Sequence record: PQ724393.1
Origin: a phage
Strand: one strand, 5' to 3'
DNA: 64,000 nucleotides
Of the stretch, positions 4,090 through 21,513 are shown piece by piece. Below the pieces are notes generated by a model. That model saw only the letters and a program-made list of their open reading frames with translations. It did not search any database and was not told the DNA's origin. Every line of letters begins with the position of its first letter. Within the stretch, counting starts at the first letter, position 1. A program made the position numbers and the translations under genes.

Positions 4090-5744
<1,655 letters not shown>

Positions 5745-10900: not shown

Positions 10901-10908
10901 TATAAATA
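10901..10908 (+). promoter_or_regulatory. T4 late promoter TATAAATA upstream of gene 34
   Basis: Exact octamer about 32 nt before the gp34 ATG. Confidence 0.6.
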
Positions 10909-14848: not shown

Positions 14849-15973
14849 ATGGAAAGATTTATGGCTGAATTTGGACAAGATTACGTTCAAATTCCTGTAC
14901 TATCTGAAAATAATGCCGTTAGTTATAAACTTAGTATAGCAGGGAGCTGTACTAAGTCTACTAAAAAGGCTTATATCAAATTTCAAGATGAGGACTTCGG
15001 TCCTCAGAATTTCCAATCCGGCCTAAATTTGGTTGAAATAGACCCGACAAATAACACAATAGTAACTACAAAATCATACTCATTTACCAAAGACCATGAT
15101 GTTATTTCCCAAGCGTTTATAACTTATATTTCATCTATACCTGCTGGTAGAATTGTTTGCATTATTTCTTCCGGCAAATTAAACGCCTCACAAGTATTAA
15201 TTGATTGGTTTAGGGCTTCCGGTTCTACAGCATTTCCGGATAAATGGCTTATTGATAAAGTGGATACTTCTTATTCAGCTTTTTATGTTTCAGGAAGAAA
15301 TGCTATTGTAATGGAACATGTGCTTTATAACGATGGCGTTTTGGTAGAAGATGTTTCCACTCCATTAGAAGTCGTTTATGATAACTTTAATGATGTAGGT
15401 GGGACCGGGTTCCCTGTTAGAGTCATTGAAGATGAAAATACTTACTATAGCGGAGCTACTCAAGAAATTAAAAGGTTTCCTACCAATTCCGCCATAACTC
15501 CTTGTGCCGGTTATAATATGGTCCCTGGAGATTTCTTTTATCTTAAATTCCAAATGACCTATGACCAGGCTTTAAAAGATTTGGGGACGACTCAGATGTC
15601 CATACGATTTTTTAATGGCCAAGAAATGCTTCAATCCACTGATATCAATATTCCTGTAGGAGCAGGCTCTCCACCGGCAGGCGCATGGATGACTTTTGAG
15701 CGCGTAATAGAAGTTCCGCCAAATGCCAATGGTTTTACATTATATTGTAGAAAAACTGTCTCAGGCGGAGTAGGAGGTGTTAGGAATGTTATGTTTGGTG
15801 AAATAGCTAGACCTGAAGATACCCCTAAATCCGCTGAAATCGGTGTTAATGGTATTCGTATGAGCTATGGTACCGAAACCCGTTCAATGGGTAATGTTAT
15901 TGCACAATTGAATGACAAATCATCTGGTAACGCAGGTAAAGTATTTGTTCAAGAATTTAAAGAAAAATATTAA
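14849..15973 (+). CDS. 35: Long tail fiber hinge protein gp35
   Basis: 374 aa, size and synteny. Confidence 0.7.
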   Translation: MERFMAEFGQDYVQIPVLSENNAVSYKLSIAGSCTKSTKKAYIKFQDEDFGPQNFQSGLNLVEIDPTNNTIVTTKSYSFTKDHDVISQAFITYISSIPAGRIVCIISSGKLNASQVLIDWFRASGSTAFPDKWLIDKVDTSYSAFYVSGRNAIVMEHVLYNDGVLVEDVSTPLEVVYDNFNDVGGTGFPVRVIEDENTYYSGATQEIKRFPTNSAITPCAGYNMVPGDFFYLKFQMTYDQALKDLGTTQMSIRFFNGQEMLQSTDINIPVGAGSPPAGAWMTFERVIEVPPNANGFTLYCRKTVSGGVGGVRNVMFGEIARPEDTPKSAEIGVNGIRMSYGTETRSMGNVIAQLNDKSSGNAGKVFVQEFKEKY

Positions 15974-15996: not shown

Positions 15997-16004
15997 TATA
16001 AATA
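15997..16004 (+). promoter_or_regulatory. T4 late promoter TATAAATA upstream of gene 36
   Basis: Exact octamer about 26 nt before the gp36 ATG. Confidence 0.6.
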
Positions 16005-16029: not shown

Positions 16030-16677
16030 ATGGCTGATTTAAAATTAGGCTCAACCGCCGGAGGTTCCGTTATATGGCACCAAGGCAACTTTCCGCTGAC
16101 GCCGGTATCAAATGATATTTTATATAAAACCTACAAAATCTATACCGAATTTAATAAGCCTCAAGCTACAGATAACGACTTTGTTTCTAAGGCAGCCGGA
16201 GGTACATATAAAGGTACTGTTAATTTTGAAAAAGGTATAACTTTTAACGACTCTGCCGGGTATGCTATTAAATTGGGTGCCAGAGAAGGCGGGCAACCTT
16301 TTACCGCTTCATTTAAGATTAAAGGGTCTTTTGGCCTTGAAACTGAAACGGGGACCCCATTTGTAATCTTCAACCCGAGCACTACAGTAGGAGCTAACCG
16401 TCTTACAGTAATGGGTGATATCCTTGGTCGTCAAATTAAAGACGAATCAGGCCGAGTGTTTTCTCCAGGGAATGCTCCGACAAAAGCCCAGGTAGGATTA
16501 AGTGATGTGGATAACGCAAAACAGGTCCAAATAAATAATAGTAACATACAATCCATGGCTGGTGTTCTTTCAGCCCCAAATTTCATATCTAGGAACCCAG
16601 GTACATTGAACGAACACGTTCCTCGTATTGACCAGGTTGTTCTTAGAGGTACATCTGAAGATTTTGGATATTATTAA
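16030..16677 (+). CDS. 36: Long tail fiber distal connector gp36
   Basis: 215 aa, size and synteny. Confidence 0.7.
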   Translation: MADLKLGSTAGGSVIWHQGNFPLTPVSNDILYKTYKIYTEFNKPQATDNDFVSKAAGGTYKGTVNFEKGITFNDSAGYAIKLGAREGGQPFTASFKIKGSFGLETETGTPFVIFNPSTTVGANRLTVMGDILGRQIKDESGRVFSPGNAPTKAQVGLSDVDNAKQVQINNSNIQSMAGVLSAPNFISRNPGTLNEHVPRIDQVVLRGTSEDFGYY

Positions 16678-16685
16678 GAGGCATT

Positions 16686-19600
16686 ATGGCTACTTTAAAA
16701 TCGATACAATTTAAAAGAAGTAAAATAGCAGGAGCCAAGCCTACTGCAGCCCAGTTAGATGAAGGTGAACTGGCTATTAACTTGCGTGACCGTACCATTT
16801 TTACTAAGTCAGACCAGGGACAGATTATTGACCTTGGTTTTGCAAAGGGTGGTACTGTCGATGGCGATGTAACTATTAATGGGACCCTGAATTTAAACGG
16901 TCCTGAAATTGTTGCCTCTGGTGGTTATATAGAATTTAACTATCGTACGACAGGTAGTGGCTCTTGGGCAGGCCAGCACAGGGCCAAAGCTCCTATTTTT
17001 GCTGATTTAAGTGCGGCTGCATCTACTTCAGAATACAACCCACTGATTAAACAACGCTTTAAAGATGGAACATTTTCAGCAGGCACATTAGTTTCGGAAG
17101 GTAGTTTTAAATTCCACTATATTAATGAAGCTGGTGATTCAAAATATTGGACCTTTAATCGTAATGGTAATTTTCAAGTTGATACCGGTAGTTTAATGGT
17201 ATCAGCAGGTAATATTTCTGCATCAGGCAACATAAATTCGGCTAATGGTATTATCACCGGTCCTGAAATTGTTACCAAAAATATTAATTTCAGTACAAAA
17301 TCATTTGTAGCTAATGCAAATATAGGATACGACTGGGTTTCATTACCTACCTGGGTTTATAATCCTCCTGCTGATGGTTCTGATGATACTACTAACGGTT
17401 TAAACTATTTGCGTAAATTGCGTGCATCAAGTGCATCAAGTATTTTCCATGAAATTGCTGATTGTCGCAAAGGTAAACCACAAGAAATTTCTTGGTGGAC
17501 CGGCGTAGGACCATCGTCTTTCCAATGGGCTTTTGATAACTCTGGACGTATTACCGCAGGTAAATCAATTTCTGTAGGTCTTCCTGATAATGGTACAAAT
17601 GGTCGTTACCCACTAGATTCAGCAATTTCTATTGGTATTGCAATTGGTGATAATGACACCGGTATTAAATGGGTTCGTGACGGCGTTATTGATTTCATGG
17701 CTAACAGTATTTCAACCGCTACCATTTTGAATAACGGTATTAACAGTACTAAAAAATTGACGGTCGGTTATAGCCGTGATTCCGGCTCTACTTGGGATTT
17801 CCCAAATAACAACCAGGCAATGTTTACTGCTCGTACCGATATTGATGGTAATAATAATGGTGACGGTCAGACTCATATCGGTTATAGCAGCAATGCCAAG
17901 ATGTATCACTATTTCCGTGGCACAGGTCGTATGTCTGTTAGTATGGGTGATGGACTTCTTGTTGAACCGGGTATTTTAGATATTAAAACCGGTTCAAATT
18001 CATTAAATTTACGTGCTGACGGTACTGTTGCTTCAACGAAAAGAATTAAACTTGATAATGGATTGGTTCTTACCGGTTCTAGACCTGATGGTATTCAACT
18101 TGATGCACCCACATCAGTAGATGGCACTAAATCTATTTTGTGGGCTGGTGGTACTCGCGCAGGTCAGAATAAAAACTATGTAACTATTAAAGCATGGGGT
18201 AATGCATTCAACTCAACTGGTGATAAAACCCGTGAAACCGTATTTGAAGTTGGAGATGGACAAGGATACCATTTTTATTCACAGCGCATATCCCCTACCG
18301 GAGTTGAAACAGTTGGCCCTGTGATTATTCAAATGGCAGGTAGTTTATTGGCTCGTGGTACGTTAAACACTGATGGCAATCTTTATGTGAAAGGATTAAG
18401 TACACATGAAGGTACTGTGACCATGAATAATGGCCTTCGTTTAACTGGCGGCGCTAATATAAGCGGCCAGGTTAAAATTGGTGGTGTTAACGATGCATTG
18501 AGAATTTGGAACGACCGATATGGTGCTATTTTCCGTCGCTCAGAAACATCATTACATATTATCCCGACCAATGAAAATGAAGGTGAAAACGGTCCGATAA
18601 GCAACCTTCGCCCGTTTAGTATTGAATTAGGTACTGGTGCCATTAATATGGGCCATTCTTTAATGATAGGCAACTCGGCCCGCGGTGATGGCCTGCTGAA
18701 TATTGATACCAAAGCATTCTTGATTACAATTAACAGTCATTCGAAAATTAAACCTAATTATCGTATGGACTTAGAAAACGGTGCTTATATAAATGCTTTA
18801 ATGGATGCAAACGGTCGTTCAGCTGGCGCAGGTTCATTCGCGTCCCAGAATAATGAAAACGTCCGCGCTCCATTCTACATGAATATCGACCGTGATGATA
18901 CCAGCACTTATGTTCCAATGATAAAGCAACGTTATGTTCAGGGTAATGGATGTTTTTCAATAGGTACTTTGTTGAATAATGGCAACTTCCGCGTCCATTA
19001 TCACGCTGGTGGTGACGGTGGTTCGACTGGTGCTCAGATTGCAGATTACGGTTGGGAATTCACTAAATCCGGTGATTTTGTATCTCCACGACGTGTCTCG
19101 GCAGGTGGTTCGGTTTATCTAGGTACGGATGGTAATATCACTGGTGGTTCTGGTAATTTCTCTAACCTGAATACTACTTTAGACCGCAAAGTTACCACGG
19201 GGTGGATTAACTATTCTTCTGAAAGTGGCTGGTATAAATTGGCAACAGTAAATATGCCTCAAGGTGCAGCTACGGTCCAATTTAAAATAACAGGCGGTTC
19301 CGGTTTTAACGTTGGTATTTTTAGACAAGCAACAATTAATGAAATTGTATTGCGTTCCGGTAATAATACACCTAAAGGAATTAACGGTGTTTTATGGCAG
19401 CGCGAAACTGATGCTATTAAAGACATTGCATATATTAATACCTCAGACGATGAGTATGATGTTTATATTAATTGTGGTACTTATTTAAATAGACTTACCC
19501 TAGAATATAGCACTTCAGAAAACGCTTCGGTAGTAGTTTATGGATTATATGGGCCTACGCAATCACCGGTAGAAGAGCTTCCTGTAGATATTGTTAAAGG

Positions 19601-20663
19601 TCGTGTTTTTAAACTTCTTAATAATAGCTCAGATGTTTTTGACGCTGGTAGTTCTAATATTTCTACAAATGCCACCTTTGTTGCTAATACAACTGTAGGT
19701 TTCCGCCATAAATCCAATGGTGATGAAAGTGGTTCTGCCGCTACTCTGTTTTATAATGATGGTACTACGTTCCATATATTATTAACAGATAAGAACACCG
19801 ACACAGATAAAACTAAAGCCTCTGGTTCTAACAACAGTTTAAGGCCTTTTTCTATCAATATTGCTTCTGGTAAAGTAACTATTTCAAACTCTATGAGTGT
19901 TTCTGGTGTTGCAGAGTTTTATAACGGTCTTAATATCAAAAACAATGGAAGCATTAATTTTGATAAGTCTGGTGCGAACCCGAGAAACATGCGTATATTC
20001 CATGCCGGTGATGCTTCACGTGGAAACCGTATTGAAGTTGCGGATGAGTCTAATTACTTAGTTTATTGGGAAAAAACTCCGGGCGGCGCAAACCGTTCTT
20101 CATATAACCAATGTGAAGTTAATGGTATAACTACTCTTAACGTTAATACTAAAGTGAACACCCCACAAATTGGAGCATTTGGTGTTAACACAACTAATGG
20201 ATTTGGTGGTAACTCAATTGTAATAGGTGATACCGATACAGGTTTCAGACAAGTTGGCGATGGACTTTTAGAAGTTTGGACCAATGCCGTTCGCCGGATG
20301 CGATTCCAGAGTGGTGACACTTATTCTGATATGAATATAAATGCTCCAAACGTTTATATTCGTTCGGATATCAGATTGAAATCTAACTTCAAACCTATTG
20401 AAAATGCTCTTGAAAAGGTTGAACAGCTCGACGGTTTAATCTATGATAAAGCTGATTATATTGGTGGAGAGGTTGTTCACACTGAAGCAGGTGTTATTGC
20501 ACAGAGCCTGGAAAAAGTATTACCTGAAGCTATTCGTGAAGTTGAAGATATCAAAGGTAATAAAGTTCTGACCGTTTCGACTCAGGCCCAAGTGGCGCTG
20601 TTACTTGAAGCGGTTAAAACCCTGTCGGCTAAAGTTAGAGAACTTGAAGCTAAATTAAATTAA
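16686..20663 (+). CDS. 37: Long tail fiber distal subunit gp37 with C-terminal intramolecular chaperone-like domain
   Basis: 1325 aa; C-terminal ~110 aa carries SDIRLK (S74-type autoproteolysis signature) and a coiled-coil tail. Confidence 0.85.
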   Translation: MATLKSIQFKRSKIAGAKPTAAQLDEGELAINLRDRTIFTKSDQGQIIDLGFAKGGTVDGDVTINGTLNLNGPEIVASGGYIEFNYRTTGSGSWAGQHRAKAPIFADLSAAASTSEYNPLIKQRFKDGTFSAGTLVSEGSFKFHYINEAGDSKYWTFNRNGNFQVDTGSLMVSAGNISASGNINSANGIITGPEIVTKNINFSTKSFVANANIGYDWVSLPTWVYNPPADGSDDTTNGLNYLRKLRASSASSIFHEIADCRKGKPQEISWWTGVGPSSFQWAFDNSGRITAGKSISVGLPDNGTNGRYPLDSAISIGIAIGDNDTGIKWVRDGVIDFMANSISTATILNNGINSTKKLTVGYSRDSGSTWDFPNNNQAMFTARTDIDGNNNGDGQTHIGYSSNAKMYHYFRGTGRMSVSMGDGLLVEPGILDIKTGSNSLNLRADGTVASTKRIKLDNGLVLTGSRPDGIQLDAPTSVDGTKSILWAGGTRAGQNKNYVTIKAWGNAFNSTGDKTRETVFEVGDGQGYHFYSQRISPTGVETVGPVIIQMAGSLLARGTLNTDGNLYVKGLSTHEGTVTMNNGLRLTGGANISGQVKIGGVNDALRIWNDRYGAIFRRSETSLHIIPTNENEGENGPISNLRPFSIELGTGAINMGHSLMIGNSARGDGLLNIDTKAFLITINSHSKIKPNYRMDLENGAYINALMDANGRSAGAGSFASQNNENVRAPFYMNIDRDDTSTYVPMIKQRYVQGNGCFSIGTLLNNGNFRVHYHAGGDGGSTGAQIADYGWEFTKSGDFVSPRRVSAGGSVYLGTDGNITGGSGNFSNLNTTLDRKVTTGWINYSSESGWYKLATVNMPQGAATVQFKITGGSGFNVGIFRQATINEIVLRSGNNTPKGINGVLWQRETDAIKDIAYINTSDDEYDVYINCGTYLNRLTLEYSTSENASVVVYGLYGPTQSPVEELPVDIVKGRVFKLLNNSSDVFDAGSSNISTNATFVANTTVGFRHKSNGDESGSAATLFYNDGTTFHILLTDKNTDTDKTKASGSNNSLRPFSINIASGKVTISNSMSVSGVAEFYNGLNIKNNGSINFDKSGANPRNMRIFHAGDASRGNRIEVADESNYLVYWEKTPGGANRSSYNQCEVNGITTLNVNTKVNTPQIGAFGVNTTNGFGGNSIVIGDTDTGFRQVGDGLLEVWTNAVRRMRFQSGDTYSDMNINAPNVYIRSDIRLKSNFKPIENALEKVEQLDGLIYDKADYIGGEVVHTEAGVIAQSLEKVLPEAIREVEDIKGNKVLTVSTQAQVALLLEAVKTLSAKVRELEAKLN

Positions 20664-20668
20664 GAAAA

Positions 20669-20682
20669 GGGCCTTCGGGCCC
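20669..20682 (+). other. Hairpin GGGCC-UUCG-GGCCC in the 37-38 spacer, abutting the gp38 SD
   Basis: Perfect stem and tetraloop seen; no U tract. Confidence 0.4.
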
Positions 20683-20694
20683 TAAGGATTTATT

Positions 20695-21495
20695 ATGGCA
20701 ATCGTAGGATTACCCGGTTGGGTCGGCCAATCTGCAGTTGACGAAACAGGTCAACGTTGGATGGATGCAGCAATGCGTGATGTTCGTGTAGCTGTTCCGG
20801 GTTGGATGGGTTCGATGGCTAACCAATCAAAAGAAATTTACTTATCTATAGGGGCTAATCATAACTATGATAGGAATACCCTTATAAACTGGATGAGAGC
20901 ACAAGGTGGTGCGCCTGTGGTTATTACAATTACCGGCGACTTGGTATCAAATAGCCGCGGAAACCCTTGCCTGGAATTCCCTAGCAATCTTCCTAACGCA
21001 TATATTCAACTTACCATTAATAGCGGTGTGACTGTTTATGGCCGAGGAGGCCGAGGAGGCTGGACCCATAGCAACGGCAATGGTAATGGTGAGGCCGGCG
21101 GAATAGCCATACAAAACAATGCCGGAACTAAACTTCGTATCCGTAATAATGGCGCTATAGCCGGTGGTGGTGGCGGTGGCGGTGGCATCGCGTATAGGCC
21201 CCATTCAGGTGCTAACTGGCAAGATATAGGCGCTGGCGGCGGTAGACCATTTGGTGCAGCTGGTGGCGGAGGATACTCCGGTGGGGCGGCATCTCTTACC
21301 GGAGCAGGTGGTGGTTATAATTATGGTAACGCGCATTCCGGTGCTGGTGGGAATGTCGGTGCTAAAGGCCAAAACGCTTGGAATGATGGAGGTAAAGTGC
21401 TTAAAGTTGGCGCTGGTGGTAATGCTGGGGCAGCAGTCGCCGGTAATGCTCCTAACTGGCAAAACGTTGGTACGATATACGGAAGCAGAGTATAA
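20695..21495 (+). CDS. 38: T2-type receptor-binding adhesin gp38 with glycine-rich motifs
   Basis: N-terminus MAIVGLPGWVGQSAVDETGQRW, poly-Gly blocks, C-terminal WQNVGTIYGSRV. Confidence 0.8.
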   Translation: MAIVGLPGWVGQSAVDETGQRWMDAAMRDVRVAVPGWMGSMANQSKEIYLSIGANHNYDRNTLINWMRAQGGAPVVITITGDLVSNSRGNPCLEFPSNLPNAYIQLTINSGVTVYGRGGRGGWTHSNGNGNGEAGGIAIQNNAGTKLRIRNNGAIAGGGGGGGGIAYRPHSGANWQDIGAGGGRPFGAAGGGGYSGGAASLTGAGGGYNYGNAHSGAGGNVGAKGQNAWNDGGKVLKVGAGGNAGAAVAGNAPNWQNVGTIYGSRV

Positions 21496-21505
21496 TACCC
21501 CATAT

Positions 21506-21513
21506 TATAAATA
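21506..21513 (+). promoter_or_regulatory. T4 late promoter TATAAATA upstream of holin t
   Basis: Exact octamer followed by AAGGAG SD and ATG. Confidence 0.6.

What the first reader, a model, noticed from the sequence alone, without database searches (positions are those of the whole stretch)
16686..21495. gp37 with a self-cleaving C-terminal chaperone signature, combined with a T2-type gp38 adhesin
The last ~110 residues of gp37 carry SDIRLK (DNA about 20353-20370) and a coiled-coil tail, the hallmark of the S74 intramolecular chaperone that cleaves itself off trimeric fibres (endosialidase, T5 L-shaped fibre). The next gene encodes a gp38 with the conserved T2/T6 N-terminus and glycine-rich motifs. 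This predicts a mature fibre tip made of C-terminally processed gp37 capped by gp38, in which case the variable segments between the Gly motifs of gp38 would set host range.
Basis: partly seen in the sequence, partly recalled or inferred. Interest (0 to 1): 0.55.

Follow-up and report, generated by a model that had tools for sequence, protein, structure and literature searches.

The report
T2-type tail fibre tip, already known
This is the standard tail-fibre tip of a T2/S16-type T-even phage, in which gp37 carries a self-cleaving folding domain and gp38 is the separate receptor-binding cap; it is correctly read but already well described.

Summary
gp37 (16686-20663, 1325 aa) ends in a Pfam Peptidase_S74 intramolecular chaperone (aa 1227-1283, E=1.4e-14). 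SDIRLK lies at nt 20364-20381 (S1227 to K1232), not at about 20353-20370. The chaperone is 99 aa, not about 110. gp38 (20695-21495, 266 aa) is a GP38 adhesin (Pfam E=2.3e-67; S16 gp38 structure 6F45_D, E=6.7e-42).

Cleavage of the gp37 C-terminus followed by gp38 capping is described in the literature for T2, T6 and S16. T2 gp37 carries the identical stretch APNVYIR|SDIRLKSNFKPIENAL. T4 gp37 lacks the domain.

The window is a Dhakavirus-like genome. Its gp37 is 89% identical to that of phage dhaeg.

One addition: gp38 is a chimera. Residues 1-112 are T2-type (88% identity). The glycine-rich loop region (aa 113-240) is 74-77% identical to RB32 and AV119, both reported to depend on OmpA, against 56-58% to T2 and dhaeg. 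Five of six reported OmpA-contact loop residues are kept. I infer OmpA as the receptor.

Predicted sizes are 131.5 kDa for mature gp37 and 10.9 kDa for the released chaperone. Interest is low.

The parts
15997..16004 (+). T4-type late promoter box TATAAATA upstream of g36; likely start of the g36-g37-g38 late transcript
   Evidence: Exact match. The same box lies before g34 (10901) and before t (21506). The total count in the window is not above chance, so the assignment rests on position and on T4 knowledge.
16030..16677 (+). gp36, distal connector of the long tail fibre (215 aa)
   Evidence: ORF. Its position matches the annotated gp36 of dhaeg, T2, T6, RB32, S16 and T4.
16686..20363 (+). 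Predicted mature gp37 (aa 1-1226, 131.5 kDa), the trimeric distal half-fibre ending in ...NINAPNVYIR
   Evidence: ORF. 89% identical over its full length to dhaeg gp37. Carries a Gp34_trimer-like domain at aa 509-646. The end point is inferred from the S74 scissile Ser. Mass.
20364..20381 (+). SDIRLK motif: scissile/nucleophilic Ser1227 and Lys1232 (+5) of the Ser-Lys dyad
   Evidence: S, D, R and K are invariant in an alignment with T2, T6, S16, a T5-like fibre and a Thermus phage fibre. The T5 Ser1264/Lys1269 mechanism is described in PMC4690869.
20364..20663 (+). C-terminal intramolecular chaperone domain (Peptidase_S74), aa 1227-1325, 99 aa, 10.9 kDa, plus the stop codon
   Evidence: Pfam PF13884 E=1.4e-14. 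phmmer hits to the S16 gp37 construct 6F45_A (E=6e-4) and to the MYRF autoprocessing domain 7DC3 (E=0.02). tblastn matches in 1533 phage records, the listed ones almost all tail-fibre genes of many genera.
20592..20657 (+). Heptad-repeat (coiled-coil-like) tail of the chaperone, V1303-L1324
   Evidence: Hydrophobic residues at 3-4-3-4 spacing, read from the sequence. Predicted helical, but only in a low-confidence AF2 model.
20669..20682 (+). Intercistronic GGGCC-UUCG-GGCCC hairpin between the g37 stop and the g38 Shine-Dalgarno (AAGGA, 20684-20688)
   Evidence: Sequence; fold of -12.7 kcal/mol. The stem is kept with different base pairs in T2/dhaeg, T6/RB32 and S16.
20695..21495 (+). gp38 adhesin (266 aa), the monomeric cap of the gp37 trimer
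   Evidence: Pfam GP38 E=2.3e-67 and Gp38_N E=5.8e-16. PDB 6F45_D E=6.7e-42 and 9V85 E=2e-39. PHROG 2056 'tail fiber protein; host specificity' E=8.7e-98.
20695..21030 (+). gp38 aa 1-112: T2-type attachment domain (W9, W22, W37) and the start of the beta-helix
   Evidence: 87.5% identical to T2 and 89.3% to dhaeg, against 39-47% to T6, RB32, S16 and AV119. The three Trp are invariant across the aligned sequences. The role of the Trp residues is described in PMC6851490.
21031..21414 (+). gp38 aa 113-240: glycine-rich motifs and hypervariable loops (the receptor-binding sandwich), of the RB32/AV119 (OmpA) type
   Evidence: 76.6% identical to RB32 and 74.2% to AV119, against 56-58% to T2 and dhaeg and 53% to T6. 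The DNA mosaic is shown. Contact residues are mapped.

Best explanation
g37 and g38 encode the distal tip of a T2/S16-type long tail fibre in a Dhakavirus-like T-even phage. The proposed sequence of events is as follows.

1. Three gp37 chains trimerise, nucleated from the C-terminus by the 99-residue S74 intramolecular chaperone (aa 1227-1325).
2. Once the beta-helical tip is correctly folded, each chain cuts itself between Arg1226 and Ser1227. Ser1227 is activated by Lys1232.
3. The chaperone trimer (3 x 10.9 kDa) leaves. This exposes the flat ...NVYIR end of the 131.5 kDa mature gp37.
4. One gp38 monomer docks on that end through its N-terminal helical bundle, inserting W9, W22 and W37 into three symmetry-related pockets.
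5. The gp38 polyglycine sandwich presents the hypervariable loops that bind the host outer-membrane receptor. From loop similarity to RB32 and AV119, that receptor is most probably OmpA.

Shown here: domain identities, motif conservation, gene order and the chimeric make-up of gp38. Inferred from homologues: cleavage, release, capping, stoichiometry and the receptor.
For: S74 domain:
- Pfam match above the curated cut-off at the extreme C-terminus of gp37.
- The same domain is found in T2, S16 and dhaeg gp37 but not in T4 gp37.
- S1227, D1228, R1230 and K1232, plus the G..AQ and LP motifs, are invariant across T-even, T5-like and Thermus phage fibres.
- The Ser/Lys(+5) dyad and the folding-dependent cleavage mechanism are described for T5 pb1 and K1F (PMC4690869).

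Link to characterised phages:
- T2 gp37 is 71% identical over the last 175 aa, with an identical APNVYIRSDIRLKSNFKPIENAL.
- T2/T6 gp37 is cleaved at its C-terminus and then capped by gp38 (PMC3157838).
- The S16 chaperone (last 113 aa) is autocleaved at DLNVS^SDRRIKK. The site aligned in the fPS phages is DVYIR^SDGRLKI (PMC7917993), the same context as NVYIR^SDIRLK here.

gp38:
- Pfam, PHROG and PDB matches.
- Invariant W9, W22 and W37, which have a docking role in the S16 structure (PMC6851490).
- Gene order g36-g37-g38-t is as in T2, T6, S16 and RB32.

Receptor:
- aa 113-240 are 74-77% identical to RB32 and AV119.
- RB32 requires OmpA (PMC3157838) and AV119 requires OmpA (PMC12032242).
- AV119 contact residues R165, H167, S168, G169, A170, R181 and R262 are conserved as R168, H170, S171, G172, A173, R184 and R265 (PMC12032242).
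Against: - There is no experimental data for this phage. Cleavage, gp38 incorporation and receptor are all by homology.
- The upstream Arg/Asp 'folding sensor' residues described for T5 and K1F could not be located without a trimer structure.
- The single-sequence AF2 model of the C-terminal 176 aa was unusable (mean pLDDT 42.8), so the fold was not confirmed independently.
- For the receptor: identity to the OmpA-type adhesins is only about 75% in the loop region and 58-85% at DNA level. Two contact positions differ from AV119 (V166 to P169, as in RB32; D217 to N220).
- Few HVS substitutions are known to switch or broaden specificity. RB32 is also sensitive to LPS composition (PMC3157838).
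Confidence: 0.9

Rival explanations
1. The receptor-binding loops of this gp38 target a different outer-membrane protein (T2-like FadL/OmpF, T6-like Tsx, or OmpC), or need LPS as a co-receptor, rather than OmpA. The fibre architecture is otherwise as in the best explanation.
For: The N-terminal half, the segment at aa 131-150 and the C-terminal tail are T2-like. A few HVS substitutions can change specificity: PST versus T6 and SV76 versus T2. RB32 is also LPS-sensitive (PMC3157838). Type 1 OmpA adhesins are phylogenetically close to Tsx binders (PMC12032242).
Against: All four hypervariable segments resemble RB32 and AV119, not T2 or T6. For example, IAYRPHSGANWQDIG differs at one residue from each of RB32 and AV119 and is unrelated to the T2, T6 and S16 sequences. 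Five of the six reported R165-A170 loop contact residues are kept, as are R181 and R262; D217 is N here.
Confidence: 0.25
2. The S74 domain is a retained, uncleaved C-terminal knob, or is cleaved by a separate protease. gp37 stays full length in the virion and gp38 binds elsewhere.
For: Autoproteolysis was not observed here. The fold model failed. The P1 residue is Arg here, whereas it is Ser in S16.
Against: The Ser and Lys(+5) dyad and the other family-invariant residues are intact. The sequence around the site is identical to T2 gp37, which is processed. Arg at P1 is shared with T2, T6, RB32 and the fPS phages. An uncleaved chaperone would cover the gp38 docking face (PMC7917993).
Confidence: 0.04
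3. This is a T4-type arrangement: gp38 is only an assembly chaperone absent from the virion, and the gp37 tip itself binds the receptor.
For: The gene name and position are the same as in T4.
Against: T4 gp38 matches no Pfam family, including the two GP38 adhesin families that match this protein. T4 gp37 ends in Collar and Phage_fiber domains with no S74, whereas this gp37 has S74 and no Collar. This gp38 aligns along its length with the S16 adhesin crystal structure.
Confidence: 0.02

Closest known systems
Phage T2 long tail fibre tip (gp37 processed at the C-terminus, capped by the gp38 adhesin)
   Same: gp37 is of similar length (1325 vs 1341 aa). It is 55% identical over aa 1-1084 and 71% over the last 175 aa, with an identical APNVYIRSDIRLKSNFKPIENAL and an S74 domain. 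gp38 aa 1-112 are 87.5% identical, as expected for the T2-type lock-and-key pairing of the gp37 tip with the gp38 N-terminus (PMC3157838). The gene order g36-g37-g38-t is the same.
   Different: The gp38 loop region (aa 113-240) is only 57.5% identical to T2 and carries RB32/AV119-type hypervariable segments. The receptor is therefore probably OmpA rather than T2's FadL/OmpF. The genome backbone is Dhakavirus-like, not Tequatrovirus.
Salmonella phage S16 gp37-gp38 complex (PDB 6F45)
   Same: gp38 is homologous over nearly its full length (E=6.7e-42). It has the same three Trp, G8 run and GGGRP motif. gp37 ends in an S74 chaperone that is autocleaved before gp38 docks.
   Different: gp37 is much longer (1325 vs 749 aa). 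The chaperone is only 27-31% identical and shorter (99 vs 113 aa). The P1 residue is Arg, not Ser. The gp38 loops differ (47% identity), and S16 uses OmpC.
Peptidase S74 C-terminal intramolecular chaperone of K1F endosialidase and T5 L-shaped fibre pb1
   Same: It sits at the extreme C-terminus of a trimeric fibre. The Ser and Lys(+5) dyad, the G..AQ...LPEA motif and a terminal heptad helix are present. A T5-like fibre (Salmonella phage 1-29) aligns at 36-38% identity.
   Different: It is shorter (99 vs 133 aa in T5). Here cleavage uncovers a docking site for a second protein (gp38) rather than the receptor-binding surface itself.
OmpA-dependent gp38 adhesins of RB32 and AV119 ('type 1' of Lutz et al. 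2025)
   Same: The loop region is 74-77% identical. HVS2 differs by one residue, and contact residues R, H, S, G and A are conserved.
   Different: The N-terminal attachment half is of another subtype (39-47% identity), matching a different gp37 tip. DNA identity in the loop region is only 58-85%, so this is not a recent transfer from these particular phages.
Phage T4 gp37/gp38
   Same: Same genes by name and position in the fibre operon. The gp37 N-terminus and the Gp34_trimer-like domain are shared.
   Different: T4 gp37 has a Collar/needle tip and no S74 domain. T4 gp38 is an unrelated assembly chaperone that does not match the GP38 adhesin families.

Membership tests
Peptidase S74 / C-terminal intramolecular chaperone domain (CIMCD) | Sequence match to the family profile above the curated threshold | tested here: met
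   PF13884, aa 1227-1283, E=1.4e-14, 54.5 bits against a cut-off of 22.
Peptidase S74 / C-terminal intramolecular chaperone domain (CIMCD) | Located at the extreme C-terminus of a trimeric tail fibre or spike protein | tested here: met
   The domain occupies the last 99 of 1325 aa of gp37. PHROG hits all place it at the C-terminal end of tail fibre profiles.
Peptidase S74 / C-terminal intramolecular chaperone domain (CIMCD) | Scissile Ser with Lys five residues downstream (Ser-Lys dyad) | tested here: met
   S1227 and K1232 are both invariant in the alignment with T2, T6, S16, a T5-like fibre and a Thermus phage fibre. The corresponding T5 residues are Ser1264 and Lys1269.
Peptidase S74 / C-terminal intramolecular chaperone domain (CIMCD) | Helical coiled-coil core and the overall chaperone fold | tested here: inconclusive
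   A heptad pattern runs from V1303 to L1324, and helices are predicted. However, the AF2 single-sequence model has mean pLDDT 42.8, so no fold search was run.
Peptidase S74 / C-terminal intramolecular chaperone domain (CIMCD) | Upstream Arg (from a neighbouring chain) and Asp that sense correct trimer folding | not testable with these tools
   This needs a trimer structure. Candidate residues exist (R1203, R1204, R1206, D1211, D1215) but cannot be assigned.
Peptidase S74 / C-terminal intramolecular chaperone domain (CIMCD) | Autoproteolytic release after folding | not testable with these tools
   Known for homologues only: T2/T6, S16 and T5.
T2/S16-type gp38 tail fibre adhesin | Match to the GP38 and Gp38_N profiles and to the solved S16 gp38 | tested here: met
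   PF05268 E=2.3e-67 and PF21721 E=5.8e-16. 6F45_D E=6.7e-42 over aa 8-264.
T2/S16-type gp38 tail fibre adhesin | Three conserved N-terminal tryptophans that plug into the gp37 trimer | tested here: met
   W9, W22 and W37 are invariant across 7 adhesins. Their role is described in PMC6851490.
T2/S16-type gp38 tail fibre adhesin | Alternating glycine-rich motifs and hypervariable segments in the C-terminal half | tested here: met
   Gly runs at aa 118-122, 135-136, 157-164 (G8), 181-183, 190-193, 205-207, 218-219 and 241-242. Gly is 36% of aa 113-250. The Gly motifs are conserved and the segments between them are variable.
T2/S16-type gp38 tail fibre adhesin | Encoded directly downstream of a gp37 that carries a cleavable C-terminal chaperone, with matching gp37-tip and gp38-N-terminus subtypes | tested here: met
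   There is a 31-nt gap between g37 and g38. Both the gp37 tip and the gp38 N-terminus are T2-type, as the pairing rule in PMC3157838 requires.
T2/S16-type gp38 tail fibre adhesin | Present in the virion as one copy per fibre tip | not testable with these tools
   Requires virion proteomics or electron microscopy.
OmpA-binding 'type 1' gp38 (RB32, AV119) | Hypervariable segments of the RB32/AV119 type | tested here: met
   aa 113-240 are 76.6% identical to RB32 and 74.2% to AV119, against 47-58% to T2, dhaeg, T6 and S16.
OmpA-binding 'type 1' gp38 (RB32, AV119) | Reported OmpA-contact residues (AV119 R165-A170, R181, D217, R262) | tested here: inconclusive
   R168, H170, S171, G172, A173, R184 and R265 are conserved. 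V166 is P169 here (as in RB32) and D217 is N220. The contacts themselves are in silico predictions in the source paper.
OmpA-binding 'type 1' gp38 (RB32, AV119) | Infection depends on OmpA | not testable with these tools
   Requires plating on an ompA deletion strain.
T4-type gp37 needle tip with gp38 assembly chaperone | gp37 C-terminal Collar/Phage_fiber domains, and a gp38 of the T4 type | tested here: not met
   T4 gp37 matches Collar and Phage_fiber, with no S74. T4 gp38 matches no GP38 adhesin family. The window proteins show the opposite pattern.

The most novel reading that the evidence does not exclude
This gp38 is a natural chimera: an OmpA-type set of receptor loops grafted into a T2-type scaffold. 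The scaffold comprises the attachment domain, aa 131-150 and the C-terminal tail. The composition switches at or near the glycine-rich motifs. Phage dhaeg carries an 89%-identical gp37 but T2-type gp38 loops, so the two form a natural pair that differs mainly in the loops. That pair could test whether glycine-rich motifs act as recombination joints and whether loops alone retarget the fibre from FadL/OmpF to OmpA.
Probability: 0.55. Interest if true: 0.25.

Novelty: already known. Interest (0 to 1): 0.12.

Why it matters
It adds nothing to the known mechanism. The self-cleaving chaperone on gp37 and the gp38 cap are the standard description of T2- and S16-type fibres, and they are the commoner arrangement among T-even phages.

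The practical value is annotation. It gives a predicted cleavage site (R1226|S1227), predicted product sizes, and a probable OmpA receptor for a Dhakavirus-like phage. These are useful for host-range prediction or for fibre engineering. The chimeric gp38 is a further example of module shuffling at glycine-rich motifs, which has been proposed since the 1990s.

Tried and rejected
- **Structure prediction.** An AF2 single-sequence model of gp37 aa 1150-1325 had mean pLDDT 42.8 and pTM 0.29. It was too poor for a fold search, so none was run.
- **Large protein database searches.** I did not run them to build an alignment. Pfam, PDB, tblastn and the literature had already settled the domain identity.
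- **phmmer of full-length gp37 against PDB.** It matched the S16 gp37 construct only through an internal repeat (aa 315-342) and did not report the chaperone. Searching the last 119 aa alone recovered it.
- **Literature.** A four-term search for T2 processing found nothing. A title-phrase search led to Trojet 2011, which cites Drexler 1986. I could not read the 1986 paper or Dunne 2018 directly.
- **T4-type reading.** I considered gp38 as chaperone only and rejected it.
- **T6-type gp38 N-terminus.** It is T2-type only.
- **Intercistronic hairpin.** Its folding energy is not exceptional against shuffles (z = -1.2). Only its conservation with changed base pairs supports it.
- **Whole-window scans.** There were no tRNAs and no Rfam families at gathering threshold.
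Full report
**What is there**

One runs from 16686 to 20663 (1325 aa) and the other from 20695 to 21495 (266 aa). They follow ORFs of 1299, 374 and 215 aa and precede one of 217 aa.

Pfam identifies the flanking genes as gp34 (Gp34_2nd, Gp34_trimer) and the T holin. The two genes in question match Peptidase_S74 plus a Gp34_trimer-like domain (the 1325-aa protein) and GP38 plus Gp38_N (the 266-aa protein). The order g34-g35-g36-g37-g38-t is that of T2, T6, RB32, S16 and T4.

The window as a whole is a Dhakavirus-like T-even genome. A 25-kb stretch is 91-92% identical to AnYang, MN04 and CLB_P2, and 96% identical to fDHCT2. gp37 is 89% identical over its full length to gp37 of the Dhakavirus dhaeg.

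**Check of the observation**

SDIRLK occurs once, at nt 20364-20381. The back-translated pattern is expected 0.03 times per window by chance.

The motif is S1227 to K1232, so the C-terminal module is 99 residues rather than about 110. It is the start of a Peptidase_S74 match at aa 1227-1283 (E=1.4e-14, 54.5 bits against a curated cut-off of 22).

The last 22 residues show hydrophobic residues at strict 3-4-3-4 spacing (V1303, L1306, V1310, L1313, V1317, L1320, L1324). This supports the 'coiled-coil tail' at sequence level.

gp38 matches the adhesin profiles strongly: GP38 E=2.3e-67, Gp38_N E=5.8e-16, and PHROG 2056 'tail fiber protein; host specificity' E=8.7e-98. It also matches the crystal structure of S16 gp38 (6F45_D, E=6.7e-42) and a GFP-gp38 fusion (9V85, E=2e-39). 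Gly makes up 36% of aa 113-250, including a G8 run.

**Is the S74 domain a functional member of its family?**

I aligned the last ~120 residues with T2, T6 and S16 gp37, a T5-like L-shaped fibre (Salmonella phage 1-29) and a Thermus phage fibre. The invariant residues are S1227, D1228, R1230, K1232, a G..AQ motif and an LP motif.

In T5 pb1 the scissile Ser1264 is activated by Lys1269, five residues downstream. Cleavage requires a correctly folded trimer, and S1264A blocks it (PMC4690869). The same Ser and Lys(+5) spacing is present here.

phmmer of the last 119 aa against PDB finds the S16 gp37 construct (E=6e-4) and the autoprocessing domain of myelin regulatory factor (E=0.02). tblastn finds the module in 1533 phage records; the listed hits are almost all annotated tail-fibre genes, from many genera.

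I could not confirm the fold independently. A single-sequence AF2 model was unusable (pLDDT 42.8). The upstream Arg/Asp folding sensor cannot be assigned without a trimer structure.

**Link to experimentally characterised fibres**

T2 gp37 is 71% identical over the last 175 residues. It has exactly the same APNVYIRSDIRLKSNFKPIENAL around the site.

Trojet et al. 2011, citing Drexler et al. [quoted passage not shown] For S16, the last 113 residues are an intramolecular chaperone autocleaved at DLNVS^SDRRIKK, which exposes the gp38 docking surface. The aligned site in the fPS phages is DVYIR^SDGRLKI (PMC7917993). The sequence here, NVYIR^SDIRLK, is the same context.

I therefore place the cut between R1226 and S1227. 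This gives a mature gp37 of 131.5 kDa and a 10.9 kDa released fragment.

As a control, T4 gp37 carries Collar and Phage_fiber domains and no S74. T4 gp38 matches neither GP38 family. T2, S16 and dhaeg gp37 all carry S74.

**gp38**

In the S16 structure, three tryptophans at the tips of the N-terminal helices insert into three symmetry-related pockets of the gp37 trimer (PMC6851490). Here they are W9, W22 and W37, invariant among the seven adhesins aligned.

Trojet et al. describe a few N-terminal subtypes (T2-, T6- and K3-like), each paired with a matching gp37 C-terminal subtype. Here both partners are T2-type. gp38 aa 1-112 are 87.5% identical to T2 against 44.6% to T6. The gp37 tip is T2-like.

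**A chimeric adhesin and a receptor inference**

The loop region (aa 113-240) is only 56-58% identical to T2 and dhaeg. It is 76.6% identical to RB32 and 74.2% to AV119. The C-terminal 26 residues are again T2-like.

At DNA level, similarity to T2 and dhaeg holds to about codon 110, collapses across HVS1, partly returns at codons 131-150, and is replaced from about codon 161 by RB32/AV119-like sequence. T2/dhaeg-like sequence returns at codon 241. The megablast match to dhaeg ends at query position 4365, which is codon ~118 and falls within the first glycine-rich motif.

Only one record in the phage collection, DCP80, has the same gp38 (98%). It combines that gp38 with a different gp37 body (42% identity over aa 40-1084) and a similar tip (75%).

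RB32 requires OmpA and is sensitive to LPS composition (PMC3157838). AV119 is OmpA-dependent and belongs to the 'type 1' group (PMC12032242). HVS2 here (IAYRPHSGANWQDIG) differs from each of them at one position.

The reported AV119 contact residues R165, H167, S168, G169, A170, R181 and R262 are conserved here. V166 is Pro, as in RB32, and D217 is Asn. I infer OmpA as the primary receptor with moderate confidence. Small HVS changes are known to shift specificity, so this needs a plating test.

**Mechanism**

Steps 1-3 below are inferred from T5, K1F, T2 and S16. Steps 4-5 are inferred from S16, RB32 and AV119. Only the sequence features are shown here.

1. The chaperone nucleates trimerisation of the gp37 C-terminal beta-helix.
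2. Correct folding positions Ser1227 next to Lys1232, and the R1226-S1227 bond is cut in each chain.
3. The chaperone trimer dissociates.
4. One gp38 monomer docks through its three tryptophans.
5. The polyglycine sandwich presents the hypervariable loops to the receptor.

**Comparison with what is known, and verdict**

This is a member of the T2/S16-type long-tail-fibre system. Authors in the field describe that arrangement as more common among T-even phages than the T4 arrangement (PMC6851490; PMC3157838 abstract).

All sequence-level defining features that I could test are met. The biochemical features are untestable here. Nothing sets the region apart from known systems except the particular loop/scaffold combination in gp38. 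That combination is itself an instance of the module shuffling proposed by Tetart and Trojet.

Novelty: already known. Interest: low.

Noticed in passing
window 20669-20682 (with Shine-Dalgarno AAGGA at 20684-20688): A GGGCC-UUCG-GGCCC tetraloop hairpin sits between the g37 stop codon and the g38 ribosome-binding site. The stem is kept with different base pairs in T2/dhaeg (GAGGGC-TTCG-GCCCTC), T6/RB32 (GGGGC-TTT-GCCCC) and S16 (AGAGCC-TACG-GGCTCT). Its folding energy is not exceptional against shuffles (z = -1.2). From my own knowledge, it resembles the stable CUUCGG intercistronic hairpins known from T4.
   Followed up: partly
window 14849-15973 (gp35), aa 57-128: The proximal hinge connector gp35 matches Pfam ILEI (FAM3/interleukin-like EMT inducer domain, PF15711) at E=3.7e-9, above the curated cut-off. 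This is an unexpected family name for a phage hinge protein.
   Followed up: no
window 16686-20363 (gp37 aa 480-665, and about aa 990-1130): gp37 contains a domain similar to the C-terminal trimerisation domain of the proximal fibre gp34 (Pfam Gp34_trimer; PDB 4UXE, E=2.5e-10). A second, weaker copy is suggested by blastp to T6 and RB32 gp37. The GDxDTG(I/F)(K/R) motif also recurs at aa ~320 and ~1180.
   Followed up: partly
window 10901-10908, 15997-16004, 21506-21513: T4-type late promoter boxes (TATAAATA) lie just upstream of g34, g36 and t, as in T4. There is none between g36, g37 and g38. The window-wide count (6) is not above chance.
   Followed up: partly
L003 (Escherichia phage DCP80, PQ671644.1, 78423-91220): DCP80 is the only phage record with a near-identical gp38 (98%). 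There g37-g38 is flanked by a DNA primase gene and exonuclease subunit genes instead of g36 and t. The record is only 140,978 bp and both fibre genes are annotated 'hypothetical protein'. It is probably a rearranged or misassembled genome.
   Followed up: no
window 1-64000: No tRNA genes and no Rfam family at gathering threshold were found in the whole 64-kb window.
   Followed up: yes
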